Shown one piece after another: positions 10,435 through 30,872 of a stretch of 31,281 bases of DNA. Location of the stretch: the NCBI GenBank assembly GCA_964366065.1, contig CAYISF010000001.1:1-31281 (forward strand), in the 5' to 3' direction. A program made the position numbers and the translations under genes. Under the pieces are notes generated by a model that made no database searches, was not told the DNA's origin, and worked only from the letters and a program-made list of their open reading frames with translations. This stretch comes from an uncultured Candidatus Saccharibacteria bacterium. GTDB taxonomy: Bacteria > Patescibacteriota > Minisyncoccia > Phycocordibacterales > VMEP01. How positions within the stretch are numbered: the first letter of the stretch is position 1; each line of letters opens with the position of its first letter.

Positions 10435-11904
10435 GTGAATATATTTAGGCGAAAAAAACAAGTTATCGCGTTTTATTGGCGACATAGAGCGAGAGAAATG
10501 CAAAAGTACAACTTCTGTATTTCCGAGCCGAGGAGCCAATATAGGTCTAATCCCCCGCGCTCTTGGCGCGGGGTCAAATATCTTTTTGCGCTTACAGTGT
10601 TTGTTTTTTCCTTGTGGGGAGGAAACGCAATTGCTCAACAATTTAATTCTTCGTCATTTAAGGTAGAGAGTCCGGTTGTCGCGCCGGGAGGTTATTCCAG
10701 TTCCAATAGTTACCGTTTAAACAGCGTGTTGTATCAAATGTCCATTGGCACTAGTTCCTCGTCTTCCTTTGGCGGAGCTTCGGGATTTCTTTATTTTCCT
10801 TTTGTCACGACACCGGTTGTTTCCGCGACGGCCGGAGTGAACGAAGTGGCTCTTAGTTGGTCGGCCGCGACCGGTTACCTTGGCTGGAATGTCGGTGATT
10901 ACAATTACGGGCAAGGGAGCGTATCCGGCGGACCCTATTCATACACAAATGTCGGGAATGTGACAAGTGCCACCGCAAGCGGACTTACAGCCGGAACTAC
11001 ATATTACTTCGTTATTCAGGTAAAAGATGTTTTTGGCACCGTCGTCGCTACTTCAACCGAAGTATCGGCCGCGCCGACGGCGCCGGCAACCCCCTCTCCT
11101 CCCGGCGGAGGAGGCGGAGGGGGGGGAGGAGGAGGGGGCGGCGCGCCTAGCGACGTGTACTACGGCCCGGCCGTTGTTAATTTTTCCGGTCGGGCATATC
11201 CTTTGAGTGTTGTGACACTACTGAAGGATGCGCAAGTGGCGGTCACTACGGCAGCAGGCCCCGATGCCAATTTCCAAATATCTCTAACCGGCCTTTCCAC
11301 CGGCAGTTACCTTTTTTCCGTTTATAGCGAAGACAAAAATAGACGACGGTCCAGTTTGCTCACATTCCCGGTAAGTGTTACCGTCGGCGCCAAGACGAAC
11401 ATTACAGGAATCTTTTTGGCGCCAACCATCGGCACCGACAAGAGTGAAGTGAAAAAGGGGGATGACATCGCCATTTTCGGACAAAGTGTTCCTAACGGCG
11501 ACATTACCTTTGTGGTAAATTCAGAAGAGGACTTTTTTGCCCGGGCCAAGGCCGACGTAAGCGGCGTGTATCTTTCCAATTTTGACACAGTCGTGCTTGA
11601 TTATGGCCAGCACACCGCCAAATCAAAAGCGGCGTTAGTTTCTGAAGTCAGCCCCTTCGGTTCTGCCGTCGGATTCAAGGTTGGGACAAGAAATGTTCTT
11701 GCCAGTCCGTTCTTGGCCTGTCCGGAAAAGGCCGATTTTAACGGCGACTGTCGGGTCAATCTCGTTGATTTCTCCATCGCTGCGTATTGGTACAAGCGCC
11801 CTCTTACGGCGGAATTTGCGGCGGTAGAAAAAGTCAAACTAAACGGCGACGGCAAAATTAATCTTGTTGATTCCAGTGTAATGGCTTATTACTGGACGGG
11901 GTAG
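10435..11904 (+). CDS. Secreted protein with an FN3-like domain, poly-Gly linker, Ig-like domains and a C-terminal dockerin-like domain
   Basis: Signal core YLFALTVFVFSLWGGNAIA. FN3-like VALSWS...Y.YG...SGGPY...GLTAGTTYYFVIQVKD. Two EF-hand-like repeats ADFNGDCRVNLVDFS and KLNGDGKINLVDSS. The start could be GTG 10435 or ATG 10498. Confidence 0.8.
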   Translation: MNIFRRKKQVIAFYWRHRAREMQKYNFCISEPRSQYRSNPPRSWRGVKYLFALTVFVFSLWGGNAIAQQFNSSSFKVESPVVAPGGYSSSNSYRLNSVLYQMSIGTSSSSSFGGASGFLYFPFVTTPVVSATAGVNEVALSWSAATGYLGWNVGDYNYGQGSVSGGPYSYTNVGNVTSATASGLTAGTTYYFVIQVKDVFGTVVATSTEVSAAPTAPATPSPPGGGGGGGGGGGGGAPSDVYYGPAVVNFSGRAYPLSVVTLLKDAQVAVTTAAGPDANFQISLTGLSTGSYLFSVYSEDKNRRRSSLLTFPVSVTVGAKTNITGIFLAPTIGTDKSEVKKGDDIAIFGQSVPNGDITFVVNSEEDFFARAKADVSGVYLSNFDTVVLDYGQHTAKSKAALVSEVSPFGSAVGFKVGTRNVLASPFLACPEKADFNGDCRVNLVDFSIAAYWYKRPLTAEFAAVEKVKLNGDGKINLVDSSVMAYYWTG

Positions 11905-12040
11905 TGAATACAAGAATATAGAATTTAGAATGTAGAATATAGGGAGATGCAAGATTGAAATACAGGGCAAGAATATAGAATTTAGAATGTAGAATATAGG
12001 GAGATGCAAGATTGAAATATAAGACAAAAATATAGAAATA
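11905..12040 (+). repeat. Left heptamer array (TAGAATA family) containing an exact 52-bp direct repeat (11911-11962 = 11968-12019)
   Basis: Units tatagaa/tttagaa/tgtagaa; period 57 bp. Confidence 0.9.
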
Positions 12041-12043
12041 CGA

Positions 12044-13300
12044 ATGAAAAGCGAAATAAAATCTTTTAGAAATTTGATAGTTTGGCAAAAATCAGCTGAT
12101 TTGGCAGTTTTGGTTTACCGCTACACAGAAAAATTTCCGCGCTCAGAACAAAATGGTTTAGTAAATCAGATGCGTCGGGCAGTAGTTTCCGTCTCTTCAA
12201 ATATTGCCGAGGGGTTTAAACGAAATCATAAAAAAGAGAAAGTTCAATTCTATGCTGTATCATATGGCTCTGTCTCAGAGCTGGAAAGTCAAATAGAAAT
12301 TTCTAAAAGATTGAATTATCTCAACGAAAAACAATCAAGCGAATTACTTAATTTAGTTATAGAAATATCCAAAATGACCGATAGCCTTATACGGTCTACT
12401 AATAATAATTTTTCTAGGTCTTATGTTCTGAATTCTATATTCTTTTTATTTTTCCTATATTCTGTATTCTATATTCTAAATCCTTCTTCAGCTTTGGCGG
12501 CGCGCTTCTCGGTTGAAGCACCCAGAAATATCGGCATGGAACAATTTGTGGCGAAGATATATCTGGACACGGAGGGAGTTTCAATAAATGCCATTGAGGG
12601 AAGTATTGCACTTTTAAAATCGGCCAAGGTTCAAATACGGGCCGATAATTCCGATGTGCCTTTCTGGGTTGACCAGCCAATACTAAATGCTTCAAAAAGA
12701 ACCATTTCGTTTTCCGGAATTATTCCGAACGGTTATCCCGGGAACAGGGCGTTTCTCTTTTCCATCGTCTTTTCTGACGGAAACGCATTTTCGGGAACGC
12801 GTTTTTCCGGTACGGCCTACAAAAACGATGGTCTAGGGACAAAGTTAGCGATTGAAGAAAATAGAACGTCAATTATCCGTCTTGCCAGCATTTCTCTCCC
12901 GGACATTTCGGATGACCGCGAACCGCCTGAAACATTTATCCCTCTTCTGGGCAATGATCCGGCCAATCCCGATATTTATGCCGTCTTTTTCGCGACCCAA
13001 GACAAATTTTCCGGTATTGACCACTACGAAGTTGCCGAAGCCCGGCCGACGCTTTTTGGGCTTGCTCCCAAAGTGCTTACTTTTGAGAAAGCGGTATCGC
13101 CATATAACTTGAGCGACCAAGACAAGGCAAGCTTTATTTATGTAAAAGCGGTTGACAGAAACGGCAATGAACGCGTGGAAAAGATTTCCCCAGAAAATCG
13201 CTTTCTCGCTTACCGCTTTGCGTTGTTTCTCGGTATAATACTGTTATTGCTTATCGGCGCAATTGGTTATGTCGGGAAAAAGTTTAGGCGCGGTAAATAA
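12044..13300 (+). CDS. Fusion: four-helix-bundle protein (TIGR02436/23S-rRNA-IVP, bAvd-like) + repeat-encoded hydrophobic segment + cohesin-like domain + Ig-like domain + C-terminal TM
   Basis: SFRNLIVWQKS..L...VY..TEKFP..E..GL..QMRRA.VS..SNIAEG..R...KE...F..V.YGS..ELESQ. Then SINAIEG...W...P...ISFSGIIPNGY.G...NDGLGT. Ends with LALFLGIILLLLIGAIGYV-type TM and KKFRRGK. Confidence 0.85.
   Translation: MKSEIKSFRNLIVWQKSADLAVLVYRYTEKFPRSEQNGLVNQMRRAVVSVSSNIAEGFKRNHKKEKVQFYAVSYGSVSELESQIEISKRLNYLNEKQSSELLNLVIEISKMTDSLIRSTNNNFSRSYVLNSIFFLFFLYSVFYILNPSSALAARFSVEAPRNIGMEQFVAKIYLDTEGVSINAIEGSIALLKSAKVQIRADNSDVPFWVDQPILNASKRTISFSGIIPNGYPGNRAFLFSIVFSDGNAFSGTRFSGTAYKNDGLGTKLAIEENRTSIIRLASISLPDISDDREPPETFIPLLGNDPANPDIYAVFFATQDKFSGIDHYEVAEARPTLFGLAPKVLTFEKAVSPYNLSDQDKASFIYVKAVDRNGNERVEKISPENRFLAYRFALFLGIILLLLIGAIGYVGKKFRRGK
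12421..12481 (+). repeat. Right heptamer array (TATTCTA family, inverted relative to the left array), translated in frame
   Basis: aattcta/tattctt/tattctg/tattcta/tattcta units encoding YVLNSIFFLFFLYSVFYILN. Confidence 0.85.
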
Positions 13301-13311
13301 TTCGTATAACA

Positions 13312-15051
13312 ATGAAAGCTCGGTTCTTTCGTTTCGCCACAGTTTTTGCCGCGGAAACGGCAGTTGTCGCATGCCTGTTTCTTTTCGCGCCACCTTCGGT
13401 ATCGGCGGCAAATCTGTACTTTTCGCCTTCATCCGGCAACTACGGAACCGGACAGACATTCACGGTTTCCATATATGCCGGAAGCACCGATCAGTCAATG
13501 AACGCGATTTCCGGCGTAGTTGTTTTTCCGTCCGACAAACTTTCTGTCGTTTCGCTCTCTAAATCCGCTTCCATAGTGTCGCTTTGGGTTCAGGAACCGT
13601 CTTTCTCCAACGGAGCCGGAACGGTGAATTTTGAAGGCATTGTTTTAAACCCCGGTTATACCGGTAGCGCCGGAAAAATTATTACCATTGCTTTTAAAAC
13701 TAAGCAGGCCGGTAATGCTGCTTTATCTTTTACCTCAAGTTCATTGCTGGCTAATGACGGGAAGGGGACGAATATTCTCTCCGGTATCGGAACGGCTAAT
13801 TTTTCGATTGGAATCACACCGAAAGAATCCACCACCTCTACTGTTTCTTCAGGCGCGCCTCAAGCGCCTAAGATAACTTCACCCACTCATCCCGATCCCG
13901 GTCAATGGTATTCAAAGAGCGATGCGACATTTGAATGGACAGTGCCTCAAGACGCAACTCGTGTTCGCGTACTCTATGATAAGTTTCCGTATTCGCAACC
14001 GACGGTTGCCTACAATGCGTCGCTCGTTAAAAAAGATATCACCAGTGCCGCCGATGGCATATGGTATTTCCACGCGCAATTCACCAATAGTAACGGGTCA
14101 GGGGCGATTTCCCATTTCCGTTTTCAGATAGACACCGAGAAGCCAGATTCGTTCATTATAGAAGAGATACCAAGGAGCGACCCGACCGACCCTGTAGCGC
14201 AATTTACTCTTACCGCCATGGACAAGCTTTCAGGCATAGACCATTTTGAGATAAAGATTGACGATGGCCTGAACCCGGCTGTGACTTGGAACGGGCAAAG
14301 CGGCGCAACCTATAGAACCAAGCCAATTCCGCCCGGGAAACACACAATCTCCGCCAAGGCCGTTGATAAAGCCGGAAATTACGCGGCCGACTTCGTCGAT
14401 TTTTTCATCCAACCGCTTCTTGAAACGCCCGTTATCACGGACATTGAGAAAGAAATCCCGGAAGGAGAGATTGTTTCTTTGCGCGGCAATACCAAATACC
14501 GCAATGATGGAGATACGGTTCTTGTCCGCATAGAACGCGGCGGAAGACCGACGATTGTGCAAACTGTTCGCATTATCGACGACCAGGGGGATTTTACCTT
14601 TGTCTTGGACCAGAAACTTAATCGGGGCGCTTACAACGTCTCCCTCCGGGCGGTTGACAGCCGCGGGGCCCAAAGCGAAGAATCGCCCAAGTCTAATTTC
14701 GCTGTCGTTTCGTCCGGTTCTCTTAATATTGGCAACATAGTCGTGAGCTATCTTTCGCTATTTCTTCTCTCCATAATCATTATCTCGATAATCGCTTTTA
14801 TCGGCCTCTACATCTGGCATAAGTTTACATGGTTCAATAAGCGGCTTAAGAACGAAACTAACGAAGAACAAATGGCCGTAATGCGCGCTTTTGCTACGCT
14901 CCGGGACGAGATTAAAGGGCAGATCGCCATGATGGACGGGCGGGGGGACCTTTCCGAACAGGAGAAAAAGATTTATCATAAGTTTCGCGAAGCGCTCCGC
15001 ATTTCCGAGAAATATATTGCCCGCAAAGTGAAGGATATTGATAAGAAATAA
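13312..15051 (+). CDS. Membrane-anchored cohesin-domain protein with Ig-like domains, a TM helix and a cytoplasmic coiled-coil tail
   Basis: Signal peptide ending SVSA. LYFSPSSG...GQTFTVSI...MNAISG...FPSDKL.V..LSK..SIVSLWVQEP.FSN..G.VNFEG...PGY.G..G.I.TI.F...G...LSF....LLANDG.GT. TM segment YLSLFLLSIIIISIIAFIGLYIW. Confidence 0.8.
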   Translation: MKARFFRFATVFAAETAVVACLFLFAPPSVSAANLYFSPSSGNYGTGQTFTVSIYAGSTDQSMNAISGVVVFPSDKLSVVSLSKSASIVSLWVQEPSFSNGAGTVNFEGIVLNPGYTGSAGKIITIAFKTKQAGNAALSFTSSSLLANDGKGTNILSGIGTANFSIGITPKESTTSTVSSGAPQAPKITSPTHPDPGQWYSKSDATFEWTVPQDATRVRVLYDKFPYSQPTVAYNASLVKKDITSAADGIWYFHAQFTNSNGSGAISHFRFQIDTEKPDSFIIEEIPRSDPTDPVAQFTLTAMDKLSGIDHFEIKIDDGLNPAVTWNGQSGATYRTKPIPPGKHTISAKAVDKAGNYAADFVDFFIQPLLETPVITDIEKEIPEGEIVSLRGNTKYRNDGDTVLVRIERGGRPTIVQTVRIIDDQGDFTFVLDQKLNRGAYNVSLRAVDSRGAQSEESPKSNFAVVSSGSLNIGNIVVSYLSLFLLSIIIISIIAFIGLYIWHKFTWFNKRLKNETNEEQMAVMRAFATLRDEIKGQIAMMDGRGDLSEQEKKIYHKFREALRISEKYIARKVKDIDKK

Positions 15052-15065
15052 TGATATTACAAGAA

Positions 15066-15160
15066 TTTAATATTTAAAATATAAAATTTAGGAAAGATAC
15101 ACAAAAAATAAATACACATCTGATTTGTACCATATTCTAAATTCAATATTCTACATTCCC
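15066..15160. repeat. Putative empty heptamer cassette: degenerate left-type units, a spacer, then right-type TATTCTA units
   Basis: tttaaaatataaaatttagga (resembles tttagaatatagaatttagaa) ... catattctaaattcaatattctacattccc, which uses the same unit variants as the 11905 array in reverse. Confidence 0.55.
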
Positions 15161-15161
15161 C

Positions 15162-15704
15162 ATGGATACTTTCGCACATGGACTCTGGACGGGAGTTTCC
15201 TATGAAGCTCTCAAGCGAAATTCTAAAAGACCGATAAACGTTTCGCTTTCGGTATTTTGGGGCGTGTTTCCCGATTTTTTCGCTTTTACCATTCCTTTCA
15301 TTTATATGTTTGGAAGTGTTCTTTTTGGGAGAATGAGCTTAAGCAATTTTCGCCCTCATACGCAAATAGAACCCGTGGCTCACCAATTTCCGTTCTATGA
15401 TTTGGCGAATTCGCTTTACAACGTAAGCCACAGTTTGTTTGTTTTTACGCTCGTTTTCGTAATAGTCGCGCTTATGCGGAAAAAAGTGATGTGGGAACTC
15501 GGCGCATGGTTGCTCCACATTCTGATAGATGTACCGACGCATTCCTACCAATTTTTCCCGACGCCGTTTTTATGGCCGATATCAGATTTTCGGGTGAACG
15601 GTTTTTTGTGGGCTACACCGACTTTTATTGCCGTAAATTATACGCTGATATTAGTTTCGCTTGTTGTTTTATATCTGACTCGACTCAAAATAAAGCAAGA
15701 ATAA
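15162..15704 (+). CDS. Membrane-bound metal-dependent hydrolase (YdjM/DUF457-like)
   Basis: MDTFAHG...GVFPD...SHSL...LLHILIDVPTH His/Asp motifs within hydrophobic helices. Confidence 0.75.
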   Translation: MDTFAHGLWTGVSYEALKRNSKRPINVSLSVFWGVFPDFFAFTIPFIYMFGSVLFGRMSLSNFRPHTQIEPVAHQFPFYDLANSLYNVSHSLFVFTLVFVIVALMRKKVMWELGAWLLHILIDVPTHSYQFFPTPFLWPISDFRVNGFLWATPTFIAVNYTLILVSLVVLYLTRLKIKQE

Positions 15705-29636: not shown

Positions 29637-29732
29637 TCCCACGTAATGGGGCAATAGAGTTTAGATATTCACCCAATCGGTCGTTATCAGAAAAATCTCA
29701 AAAATTTGGGAGGTATACAAAACCTAGTAATA

Positions 29733-29760
29733 TTCAATTTTCTGCTTTTAACTTTTCATT
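29733..29760 (-). repeat. AGTTAAA-family heptamer array upstream of mnmA
   Basis: Minus strand aatgaaa agttaaa agcagaa aattgaa; same family as the leuS 23694 array. Confidence 0.55.
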
Positions 29761-29780
29761 ACCTGCGGTATTATCCGCAC

Positions 29781-30872
29781 ATGGTGCGAAAGAAAACAAA
29801 AGGTAAAGTTTTCGTGGCGCTGTCGGGCGGCGTGGACTCATCCGTTTCGGCGGCACTCTTACAAAAAACCGGCTATGACGTGACAGGCGTATTTATCAAG
29901 GTCTGGCAGCCCGATTTTTTGCCGTGCTCGTGGCGGGAGGAGCGCAGGGATGCCATGCGGGTGGCGGCTAAACTCGGCATTCCGTTTCTCACCTTTGACT
30001 TGGAGCGCGAGTATAAGCGTGATGTCGCGGATTATATGATTCGCGAGTACAAAGCCGGACGGACGCCGAACCCCGATGTGATGTGCAATAAATACGTGAA
30101 ATTCGGGGCGTTCTACAAAAGGGCGCACGGACTCGGAGCGGATTTCATTGCGACCGGACATTACGCGCGAATTAAAACTAACAACCTACAACCTACAACC
30201 TACAACCTACTAACGGCGGCTGATAAAGCAAAAGATCAATCTTATTTTCTATGGACAATCAACCAGAAAGTTTTATCACACACGCTTTTTCCGATAGGCG
30301 GTTACAAAAAGAGCGAAGTGCGCGCTCTGGCAGAAAAGTTCGGCCTATTTACTTCGGAGAAAAAAGACAGCCAGGGGCTTTGTTTTATCGGGGAAATGGA
30401 TATGAAAGAATTTCTTTCGCATTACATTAAAGCGTCCCGCGGAGATGTCTTAAACGAAAAAGGGGAGAGTATCGGGTATCACTACGGAGCGTGGTTTTTC
30501 GCTCCCGGCGAACGGCACGGTTTTACTGTTCTCAAAAAGAGCCCGCATGATGAACCGCTTTACGTAATCGCCAAGGATGTGTCTAAAAATACGATAACAG
30601 TCGGAGTGCAGCGGAACCATTCGTCTGAATCAAATTTGCGAACGATAACGCTTTCCGAAACAAACTGGATTTCCGGCATGGCGCCTGTGGCAGGGAAAAA
30701 GTATCGTGGCCGTCCGCGTTATAGAGCATCCTTAATCGCCGTGGCAGTGAAAAAAATTAAGCCCGGAAAGGCAACTCTTGCTCTCGCTGAAAAAGATGCT
30801 AATCTCGCGCCCGGCCAGTCATTCGTTCTTTACGACAAGGAAGTGTGTTTGGGTGGGGGCGTCATTGGCTGA
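29781..30872 (+). CDS. mnmA: tRNA-specific 2-thiouridylase MnmA
   Basis: VALSGGVDSSV, GRTPNPDVMCNKYVKFG, IATGHYAR, KDQSYFL, KKDSQGLCFIG, APGQS.VLY...CLGGG. ATG 29781 is preferred over TTG 29706. Confidence 0.97.
   Translation: MVRKKTKGKVFVALSGGVDSSVSAALLQKTGYDVTGVFIKVWQPDFLPCSWREERRDAMRVAAKLGIPFLTFDLEREYKRDVADYMIREYKAGRTPNPDVMCNKYVKFGAFYKRAHGLGADFIATGHYARIKTNNLQPTTYNLLTAADKAKDQSYFLWTINQKVLSHTLFPIGGYKKSEVRALAEKFGLFTSEKKDSQGLCFIGEMDMKEFLSHYIKASRGDVLNEKGESIGYHYGAWFFAPGERHGFTVLKKSPHDEPLYVIAKDVSKNTITVGVQRNHSSESNLRTITLSETNWISGMAPVAGKKYRGRPRYRASLIAVAVKKIKPGKATLALAEKDANLAPGQSFVLYDKEVCLGGGVIG
30176..30210 (+). repeat. AACTAAC plus (AACCTAC)x4 array in frame in mnmA
   Basis: Encodes TNNLQPTTYNLL; same unit as the leuS 22464 array. 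Confidence 0.92.

What the first reader, a model, noticed from the sequence alone, without database searches (positions are those of the whole stretch)
11905..13300. Four-helix-bundle cassette fused to a cohesin-like protein, with the repeat array serving as its transmembrane/signal segment
Seen: a TAGAATA-type array on the left and the inverted TATTCTA-type array on the right of a four-helix-bundle domain that has no stop codon. A pure (TATTCTA)n array translates as YSIFYIL, which is stop-free and hydrophobic. Here the array gives YVLNSIFFLFFLYSVFYILNPSSALA, ending in an AxA signal-peptidase-like site just before the cohesin-like domain. Inference: the cassette landed in the 5' end of a secreted gene and its repeat DNA replaced the signal h-region, giving a cytoplasmic bAvd-like domain linked to (or cleaved from) a surface protein.
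Basis: partly seen in the sequence, partly recalled or inferred. Interest (0 to 1): 0.75.

Follow-up and report, generated by a model that had tools for sequence, protein, structure and literature searches.

The report
Selfish gene cassette fused to surface protein
A small repeat-flanked "four-helix-bundle" gene of the kind first found inside ribosomal RNA genes has no stop codon here and reads straight into a cell-surface protein, with the cassette's own repeat DNA now encoding the hydrophobic core of that protein's export signal; the same layout recurs in many other ultra-small groundwater bacteria.

Summary
One 418-codon ORF (12044-13300) joins three parts:
- a PF05635 four-helix-bundle (4HB) domain;
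- a 28-residue hydrophobic linker encoded by the cassette's right heptamer arm;
- a cohesin-like surface protein with a C-terminal membrane anchor.

The left arm (TAGAATA-type units) is inverted relative to the right arm and has stops in all three frames. Only the frame in use is open through the right arm.

Unfused orthologues follow the same dockerin-like gene within 0-21 nt and carry ordinary signal peptides. The array therefore replaced the n- and h-regions, while the ancestral c-region and AxA cleavage site remain.

The fusion is not a local accident:
- Independent assemblies encode it (98%, 49% and 37% identical partners).
- At least 84 protein clusters in Patescibacteria start with a close 4HB. 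In 81 of them it runs into a Sec-type or prepilin-type leader.
- Third codon positions of the linker are 70% conserved against 31-38% in the flanks, so the arm is still constrained as nucleic acid.

Cleavage by signal peptidase I is inferred, not shown. A nested start at Met111 is the main rival.

This scan has reported the same class on other genomes. My literature searches found no published description. It is a new variant of ORF-carrying 23S rRNA intervening sequences.

The parts
10435..11904 (+). Upstream dockerin-like surface gene, ending ...YWTG-TAG. It is the conserved left neighbour of the cohesin-like gene in orthologous loci.
   Evidence: weak Dockerin_1 hit, E 0.008; conserved gene order.
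11911..12024 (+). Left arm: two copies of a 57-nt unit, each with four TAGAATN heptamers (arrays 11913-11942 and 11970-11999). TAG occurs in all three frames. A third, degenerate partial copy runs to 12046.
12044..12397 (+). Four-helix-bundle domain (residues 1-118) of the 23S rRNA-IVS / S23p family. It has no stop codon of its own.
   Evidence: PF05635, E 4.9e-36; four helices at residues 12-120; Foldseek hit to 2gsc Xcc0516 with target-normalised TM 0.95, and to 2rld.
12374..12376 (+). In-frame ATG for Met111 in helix 4. It is a possible nested start that would give a conventional 42-residue signal peptide.
   Evidence: Sequence; residue numbering. Whether it is used was not tested.
12398..12481 (+). 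Array-encoded linker (residues 119-146) containing the right arm: sub-arrays 12426-12444 and 12454-12485, inverted relative to the left arm. It supplies the positive n-region (two Arg) and the hydrophobic h-region.
12482..12499 (+). Retained ancestral c-region of the signal peptide (P-S-S-A-L-A). The predicted signal peptidase I site lies after Ala152, at 12499/12500.
   Evidence: N-termini of unfused orthologues compared by eye. The -3/-1 rule is read directly from the sequence. Cleavage was not tested.
12500..13300 (+). Mature cohesin-like protein: beta-sandwich at residues 153-280, a second beta domain at 300-381, a C-terminal membrane helix at 387-417 and a basic tail, followed by the stop codon.
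   Evidence: 209 homologues, mostly 285-310 aa; cohesin + FnIII module 2w1n, E 1.1e-6; several type II cohesins.

Best explanation
What it is. An IVS-type cassette sits between a dockerin-like gene and a cohesin-like surface-protein gene. The cassette is a PF05635 four-helix-bundle gene in the loop between two inverted heptamer-repeat arms. This cassette lineage has no stop codon. Its right arm is open in exactly one sense frame, and that frame runs into the surface protein.

What the arm replaced. The arm took the place of the surface protein's own start codon and the n- and h-regions of its Sec signal peptide. The ancestral c-region and AxA site survive.

How it most likely works. Translation from ATG 12044 gives a 418-residue pre-protein. 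The 4HB stays in the cytoplasm. The arm-encoded helix inserts N-in/C-out. Signal peptidase I cuts after Ala152. This releases a mature, C-terminally anchored cohesin-like protein identical in layout to that of unfused orthologues. The leader peptidase in effect does the work of the missing stop codon.

Why the fusion persists. The fusion is tolerated because the partner's N-terminus is removed anyway. That would explain why such fusions are found almost only on Sec-type or prepilin-type exported proteins. The arm remains under nucleotide-level constraint as half of a long stem.

Shown: the anatomy, the replacement of the n/h-region, inheritance, recurrence, partner bias and the nucleotide constraint. 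Inferred: initiation at ATG 12044, the membrane topology, the cleavage and the fate of the 4HB.
For: Anatomy:
- Single ORF, PF05635 domain and inverted arrays.
- Only the frame in use is open through the arm.

Replacement of the n/h-region:
- Unfused orthologues and the in-genome paralogue L014 have a short spacer after the dockerin-like gene and a normal signal peptide whose c-region matches the post-array residues.

Real and inherited:
- P0002 (98% identical), P0004 (49% in the partner, 84% in the 4HB) and P0081 = L019 (37% and 59%) keep the same collinear linker and open frame.
- L019 has the same gene order and a near-identical right junction.

Intermediate state:
- In L046 the 4HB has its own TGA, overlapping the ATG of the cohesin-like gene, and the arm encodes the start of the signal peptide.
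- The pilin genes in L026 and L037 are analogous.

Recurrence and partner bias:
- 84 clusters of 208-733 aa start with a close 4HB. In 81 of them a hydrophobic leader follows directly: a strict prepilin motif (G|F-T-L-x-E type) in 16 and a Sec-like or looser pilin-like hydrophobic segment in 65.
- Downstream of 27 standalone cassettes only 14 genes have such a leader.

Nucleotide constraint:
- Between the window and L019, third-position identity is 70% in the linker, 38% in the 4HB and 31% in the partner.
- Each cassette's arms match each other: median score 16.5 against 7.5 for mismatched pairs, and 21 of 31 cassettes exceed the 95th percentile of the mismatched pairs.
- The predicted RNA fold pairs both left copies with both right sub-arrays (z -3.2).

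Membrane-helix features and enzymes:
- Hydropathy 1.98, two Arg before the h-region, and A-x-A.
- Predicted helix at residues 126-145.
- Two signal peptidase I genes in the genome.
Against: - There are no expression, proteomic or cleavage data.
- The hydrophobic stretch is about 18 residues and lies 125 residues from the N-terminus. It could act as an uncleaved signal anchor.
- No clear Shine-Dalgarno motif precedes ATG 12044.
- An in-frame ATG at Met111 would give an ordinary pre-protein.
- Standalone close relatives of this 4HB exist (P0335-P0337, P0339, P0344, P0345). Fusion is therefore frequent in the lineage but not obligatory.
- The counts of fused clusters are not phylogenetically independent.
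- The number of fusion events within the cohesin-like family is unresolved. P0004 is sister to unfused P0006 (SH-aLRT 99), yet AU tests do not reject a single clade of fused genes (p 0.17 and 0.28).
Confidence: 0.62

Rival explanations
1. Nested genes. The functional cohesin-like pre-protein starts at the in-frame ATG of Met111 (12374), inside helix 4 of the 4HB. That would give a normal 42-residue signal peptide. The 418-residue read-through product from ATG 12044 would be a tolerated by-product, or the 4HB start may be little used, as proposed for the Coxiella S23p ORF.
For: - Met111 is in frame and is followed by two Arg, the hydrophobic stretch and AxA.
- The same conserved Met precedes the leader in the prepilin-type fusions, where it would give a leader of about 25 residues.
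- In Coxiella, S23p is probably not translated in vivo (PMC4990558).
Against: - The Met is conserved in standalone 4HBs too, so it is a structural residue and not evidence of a start.
- No Shine-Dalgarno-like motif precedes it.
- The 4HB domain is well conserved in all fused proteins (55-84% identity, intact Pfam match), which argues that it is translated and under selection.
- Any ribosome that starts at 12044 must still make the fusion.
Confidence: 0.25
2. Uncleaved two-pass membrane protein. The arm-encoded helix acts as a signal anchor. The 4HB stays covalently attached on the cytoplasmic face of a surface protein held by two membrane helices.
For: - The h-region is about 18 residues, which is long for a cleaved signal peptide.
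- The model shows a continuous 20-residue helix.
- Both ends obey the positive-inside rule.
Against: The AxA c-region is kept and lines up with the cleavage sites of unfused orthologues across 37-49% divergence. In the prepilin-type fusions the canonical peptidase motif is also kept. Retention of these sites suggests they are used.
Confidence: 0.15
3. Phase-variable switch. Gain or loss of one 7-nt unit shifts the frame by one base. That would turn off a surface protein that has no start codon of its own.
For: The unit length is not a multiple of 3. The partner lacks its own start. The other two sense frames through the arm carry stops.
Against: - The units are imperfect and there are only 3-4 per sub-array.
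- The 98%-identical strain variant has an identical linker.
- In 41 fused proteins the linker length is tightly fixed at 27-30 residues in 34 of them, with no sign of unit-number variation.
Confidence: 0.04
4. Dead gene or assembly artefact. The cassette insertion destroyed the cohesin-like gene, or the repeats caused a mis-join.
For: The partner has lost its start codon. Repeats can mislead assemblers.
Against: - The 418-codon frame is intact.
- The same join is found in independent assemblies at 98%, 49% and 37% partner identity, without stops or frameshifts.
- The partner half gives a confident fold (pLDDT 89.9).
Confidence: 0.02

Closest known systems
ORF-containing intervening sequences (IVS) of 23S rRNA, e.g. 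the Coxiella burnetii IVS with its S23p ORF (PMC4990558); also Leptospira and Xanthomonas S23p (Xcc0516, PDB 2gsc)
   Same: - Same protein family (PF05635) and same fold (target-normalised TM 0.95 to 2gsc).
- The ORF lies in the loop between terminal inverted repeats that form a long stem.
- Tandem heptameric repeats lie just upstream of the ORF start; Coxiella has GACAGAT units.
- An RNase III gene is present in this genome.
   Different: - Not in rRNA: no Rfam family matches anywhere in the window. The cassette lies between two protein-coding genes.
- The ORF has no stop codon.
- One arm is translated as part of the neighbouring protein.
- Excision by RNase III would here decapitate the neighbour's mRNA.
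bAvd, the accessory protein of diversity-generating retroelements
   Same: A four-helix-bundle fold of the same superfamily, with a weak PF22296 hit.
   Different: PF22296 scores 31.4 bits, below its cut-off of 40. No reverse transcriptase (PF00078) was found in the 88%-complete genome. I saw no template/variable repeat pair.
Rickettsia palindromic elements and similar small repeats inserted in frame into host genes (recalled from memory, not checked here)
   Same: Selfish repeat DNA that is translated as part of a host protein without destroying it.
   Different: Those elements carry no gene and are not known to supply export signals. Here the repeat is the arm of a gene-carrying cassette, and it replaces a functional signal-peptide segment.
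Exported pre-proteins with removable N-terminal leaders (Sec signal peptides cut by signal peptidase I; prepilins cut by prepilin peptidase)
   Same: The positive n-region, hydrophobic h-region and A-x-A c-region are all present in the right order. The mature part matches unfused orthologues.
   Different: The leader would be 152 residues long and would contain a folded 118-residue domain. The signal lies internally, not at the N-terminus.

Membership tests
PF05635 23S_rRNA_IVP / S23p four-helix-bundle proteins | Profile match above the curated cut-off | tested here: met
   123.6 bits against a cut-off of 33.8, residues 9-112.
PF05635 23S_rRNA_IVP / S23p four-helix-bundle proteins | Four-helix-bundle fold like Xcc0516 (2gsc) and BT_0352 (2rld) | tested here: met
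   AF2 model with helices at 12-28, 33-59, 63-89 and 95-120. Foldseek hit to 2gsc: E 1.3e-8, target-normalised TM 0.95, 33-35% identity.
PF05635 23S_rRNA_IVP / S23p four-helix-bundle proteins | Free-standing protein of about 115-135 residues | tested here: not met
   There is no stop codon; the ORF continues to 418 residues. Most relatives in the order have open frames of about 115-160 aa.
ORF-carrying 23S rRNA intervening sequence (IVS element) | Inserted in a 23S rRNA helix | tested here: not met
   No rRNA or any other Rfam family in the window. The flanks are protein-coding genes.
ORF-carrying 23S rRNA intervening sequence (IVS element) | Terminal inverted repeats that form a stem around the ORF, with heptameric repeats before the start | tested here: met
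   Arms of 32 nt at 84% and 19 nt at 95% complementarity. The minimum-energy fold pairs them (z -3.2). The arms co-vary across 31 cassettes. Coxiella comparison.
ORF-carrying 23S rRNA intervening sequence (IVS element) | Excision of the stem-loop by RNase III | not testable with these tools
   An RNase III gene is present in the genome. There are no RNA data.
bAvd / diversity-generating retroelement | PF22296 above its cut-off, with an adjacent reverse transcriptase and template/variable repeats | tested here: not met
   31.4 bits against a cut-off of 40. No PF00078 match in the genome, which is 88% complete.
Sec-type cleavable signal peptide (signal peptidase I substrate) | Positive n-region, hydrophobic h-region and small residues at -3/-1 | tested here: met
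   Two Arg before the h-region, Kyte-Doolittle 1.98 over 19 residues, A-L-A|A. The site lines up with those of unfused orthologues.
Sec-type cleavable signal peptide (signal peptidase I substrate) | Located at the extreme N-terminus; cleavage shown | tested here: not met
   The h-region starts at about residue 127 of the ORF. It would be N-terminal only if Met111 is the start. Cleavage cannot be tested here; no SignalP or DeepTMHMM was available.
Cohesin domain proteins | Cohesin profile match or cohesin fold | tested here: inconclusive
   No PF00963 hit for this protein at E <= 0.01, but several homologues carry PF00963. The model matches the cohesin + FnIII module 2w1n (E 1.1e-6) and type II cohesins at target-normalised TM 0.38-0.46. 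Binding to the neighbouring dockerin-like protein was not tested.
Phase-variable simple-sequence-repeat contingency locus | Perfect tandem units with unit-number polymorphism | tested here: not met
   Imperfect units; identical linker in the 98% variant; linker length fixed at 27-30 residues in most fused relatives.

The most novel reading that the evidence does not exclude
The 4HB-plus-arm unit is a selected, portable leader module for exported proteins, not a tolerated parasite. After cleavage the 4HB (a pentamer in Xcc0516) would stay tethered to the membrane by the spent signal helix, or be released by prepilin peptidase. There it would act on the export, assembly or stoichiometry of surface and pilus proteins. 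In parallel, the arm-arm RNA stem would gate translation or RNase III decay of the surface-protein mRNA.
Probability: 0.15. Interest if true: 0.85.

Novelty: new variant of a known kind. Interest (0 to 1): 0.6.

Why it matters
First, it gives S23p / 23S-IVS four-helix-bundle genes a second habitat, and a concrete effect on host proteins. These genes have been known for 30 years without a function. Their repeat arms become signal peptides and pilin leaders, and in one widespread lineage a surface protein can apparently be made only as the tail of the cassette's own ORF.

Second, it offers a simple rule for when such fusions survive: the partner must have a removable leader. That rule is easy to test.

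Third, it is a practical warning for annotation of Patescibacteria. Proteins named "four helix bundle protein" of 260-730 residues are really surface proteins or pilins behind a cassette.

Fourth, it bears on how ultra-small bacteria diversify the surface proteins they probably use to attach to hosts.

Tried and rejected
DNA for P0002-P0006 could not be fetched, so the unfused sister P0006 could not be checked for an array-derived signal peptide.
- A 17-mer junction scan of genome contigs was mostly non-specific. It returned many unrelated hits, including a 77-residue ORF shared by gut Bacteroidales and Firmicutes. It gave only a few useful cassettes: L083, L103 and L117.
- The metagenome scan returned a single distant locus.
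- "All close relatives are fused" was withdrawn. Cluster representatives are probably the longest members, and the near-length search shows standalone close relatives. At E < 1e-36 the ratio is roughly 55 long to 13 short, and at least four of the 13 short entries are truncated fusions.
- Independent gain against single origin within the cohesin-like family stays unresolved. The maximum-likelihood tree splits the fused genes, but AU tests do not reject one clade.
- Phase variation by unit number was rejected.
- A DGR reading was rejected.
- A terminator or promoter role of the arms is unsupported: no terminator-like site, and promoter-like hits no more frequent than in shuffles.
- Literature searches found the Coxiella IVS paper but no description of 4HB fusions to exported proteins.

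Full report
**1. Observation**

The window holds one uninterrupted ORF at 12044-13300, 418 residues long.
- Residues 9-112 match PF05635, the 23S rRNA intervening-sequence protein family (E 4.9e-36, 123.6 bits, cut-off 33.8). The bAvd family PF22296 stays below its cut-off.
- Upstream, directly after the stop of a dockerin-like gene (10435-11904), lie two copies of a 57-nt unit. Each copy carries four TAGAATN heptamers.
- Downstream of the 4HB domain lie the inverse arrays, at 12426-12444 and 12454-12485. The arms are 32 nt at 84% complementarity and 19 nt at 95%.
- The heptamer word is far above chance: 15 matches against 0.69 expected.
- The cassette is a low-GC island, at 0.32 against 0.49 in the flanks.
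- The left arm carries stops in all three frames. Through the right arm only the frame in use is open.

**2. What the downstream half is**

- The part after the array has 209 homologues, mostly 285-310 residues. Some carry the cohesin family PF00963 or are named cohesin-domain proteins.
- An AlphaFold model built on 71 sequences (pLDDT 89.9) shows four helices, a 20-residue helix at 126-145, two beta domains and a C-terminal helix.
- Foldseek matches the N-terminal domain to Xanthomonas Xcc0516 (2gsc; target-normalised TM 0.95) and to BT_0352 (2rld).
- Foldseek matches the rest to a cohesin + FnIII module (2w1n) and to type II cohesins.
- Hydropathy finds two membrane-type segments: the array-encoded linker and the C-terminal anchor.

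**3. The array replaced the n- and h-regions**

- In eleven unfused orthologues from related genomes, and in a paralogue in this genome (L014), the gene follows the same dockerin-like gene after 0-21 nt. It begins with an ordinary signal peptide ending in a small-x-small site.
- In the window and in L019 the sequence resumes exactly at that c-region after the last heptamer. The cassette of about 575 bp therefore stands where the spacer, the start codon and about 20 codons once were.
- L046 shows an intermediate state. It has the same gene order, but the 4HB has its own TGA, overlapping the ATG of the cohesin-like gene, and the right arm encodes the first part of the signal peptide.
- Pilin genes behind standalone cassettes show the same intermediate state (L026, L037).

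**4. The fusion is real, inherited and recurrent**

- The same collinear linker and open frame occur in P0002 (98% identical), in P0004 (49% in the partner, 84% in the 4HB) and in P0081.
- P0081 is encoded at L019, in a Candidatus Taylorbacteria genome of the same order (37% and 59% identity). L019 has the same neighbours and a near-identical right junction.
- A search for longer proteins that start with this 4HB found 84 clusters of 208-733 residues. In 81 of them a hydrophobic leader follows directly. Sixteen have a strict prepilin cleavage motif; the other 65 have an array-encoded Sec-like leader with a small-x-small site or a looser pilin-like one.
- At the DNA level, L103, L117 and L048 confirm arm-encoded leaders in front of pilin-like genes.
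- Downstream of 27 standalone cassettes only 14 genes have such a leader. The rest include L11 and RpiB. Fusions are therefore strongly biased toward partners whose N-terminus is removed. These counts are not phylogenetically independent.

**5. The cassette class**

- In the order, 140 of 401 genomes carry such 4HB genes.
- In 31 loci examined, the gene typically lies between an upstream TAG-containing heptamer array and the inverse array ending a few bases before the next start codon. The heptamer differs from cassette to cassette, including the second cassette of this genome, between nusG and rplK.
- The arms of one cassette match each other far better than arms of different cassettes: median score 16.5 against 7.5.
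- The predicted RNA fold of 11895-12500 pairs both left copies with both right sub-arrays.
- This is the architecture of ORF-carrying 23S rRNA intervening sequences. Coxiella has a 28-bp terminal stem cut by RNase III and tandem heptamers before the S23p start (PMC4990558).
- Here no rRNA is present, and an RNase III gene exists in the genome.

**6. The linker is still a nucleic-acid element**

Between the window and L019, third codon positions are 70% identical in the linker. They are 38% identical in the 4HB and 31% in the partner. Across 41 fused proteins the linker length is nearly fixed.

**7. Mechanism and limits**

- The best reading is a 418-residue pre-protein whose leader, containing the 4HB, is cut off by signal peptidase I. 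Two genes for that enzyme are present.
- This is inference from sequence features and from conservation of the cleavage site.
- The main rival is a nested start at Met111.
- An uncleaved signal anchor is also possible.
- Standalone close relatives of this 4HB exist, so fusion is frequent but not obligatory.
- The number of fusion events within the cohesin-like family is unresolved.

**8. Novelty**

Earlier notes of this scan describe the same class on other genomes. My literature searches found no published description. I file it as a new variant of the IVS-type 4HB cassette, not as a new kind of element.

Noticed in passing
window 22460-22501, 22585-22616, 23696-23729: Three different heptamer arrays (AACCTAC, AAGAATA and AGTTAAA types) are read in frame inside the leucyl-tRNA synthetase gene (21765-24200). 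The AAGAATA type is the same word family as the cassette's left arm.
   Followed up: partly
window 30174-30215: A second (AACCTAC)n array, like the one in leuS, lies inside the ORF 29706-30872.
   Followed up: no
window 15052-15161: A pair of inverted TATTCTA-type arms with only a short loop and no gene (an 'empty' cassette) ends four bases before the ATG of the membrane-protein gene at 15162.
   Followed up: partly
L002 (own genome, contig 27) 1424-1880: The genome's second 4HB cassette (123 aa, with its own stop) sits between nusG and rplK. It is flanked by inverted AAACTTA/TAAGTTT heptamer arrays, a different word from the first cassette. The same nusG-rplK site is occupied in L043.
   Followed up: partly
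L019 3-704 (minus strand): In the Taylorbacteria relative, the signal peptide of the third gene of the operon (homologue of window 13312-15051) also contains a TATTCTA-type array (residues F-S-V-F-Y-I-L). Other genomes have the whole 4HB fused to that gene family (P0131, P0133, P0143, P0178).
   Followed up: partly
L004 about 1140-1180: An unfused orthologue from the same family has five GTTATTT heptamers encoding the h-region of its signal peptide. P0003, which sits elsewhere in the tree, has a very similar signal peptide. This suggests that the 5' ends are exchanged or converge.
   Followed up: no
P0021 (protein only): One orthologue of the cohesin-like gene is preceded in frame by a PD-(D/E)XK protein (PF13366) instead of a 4HB. 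That is another small gene type.
   Followed up: no
L048 2025-4361: A 4HB of another subfamily is fused without a stop to a 779-residue pilin-like protein. The join is a 14-nt repeat (ATACCCACTTCCCA), directly before a prepilin cleavage motif.
   Followed up: partly
window 11940-11960 and 11997-12017: Each 57-nt left-arm unit holds GGGAG directly followed by a three-codon mini-ORF (ATG CAA GAT TGA). Its meaning is unknown.
   Followed up: no
L054, L056, L068, L069, L075 and others: The 17-mer junction scan also hit an identical 77-residue ORF in many gut Bacteroidales and Firmicutes contigs. It is probably an unrelated mobile element shared across phyla.
   Followed up: no
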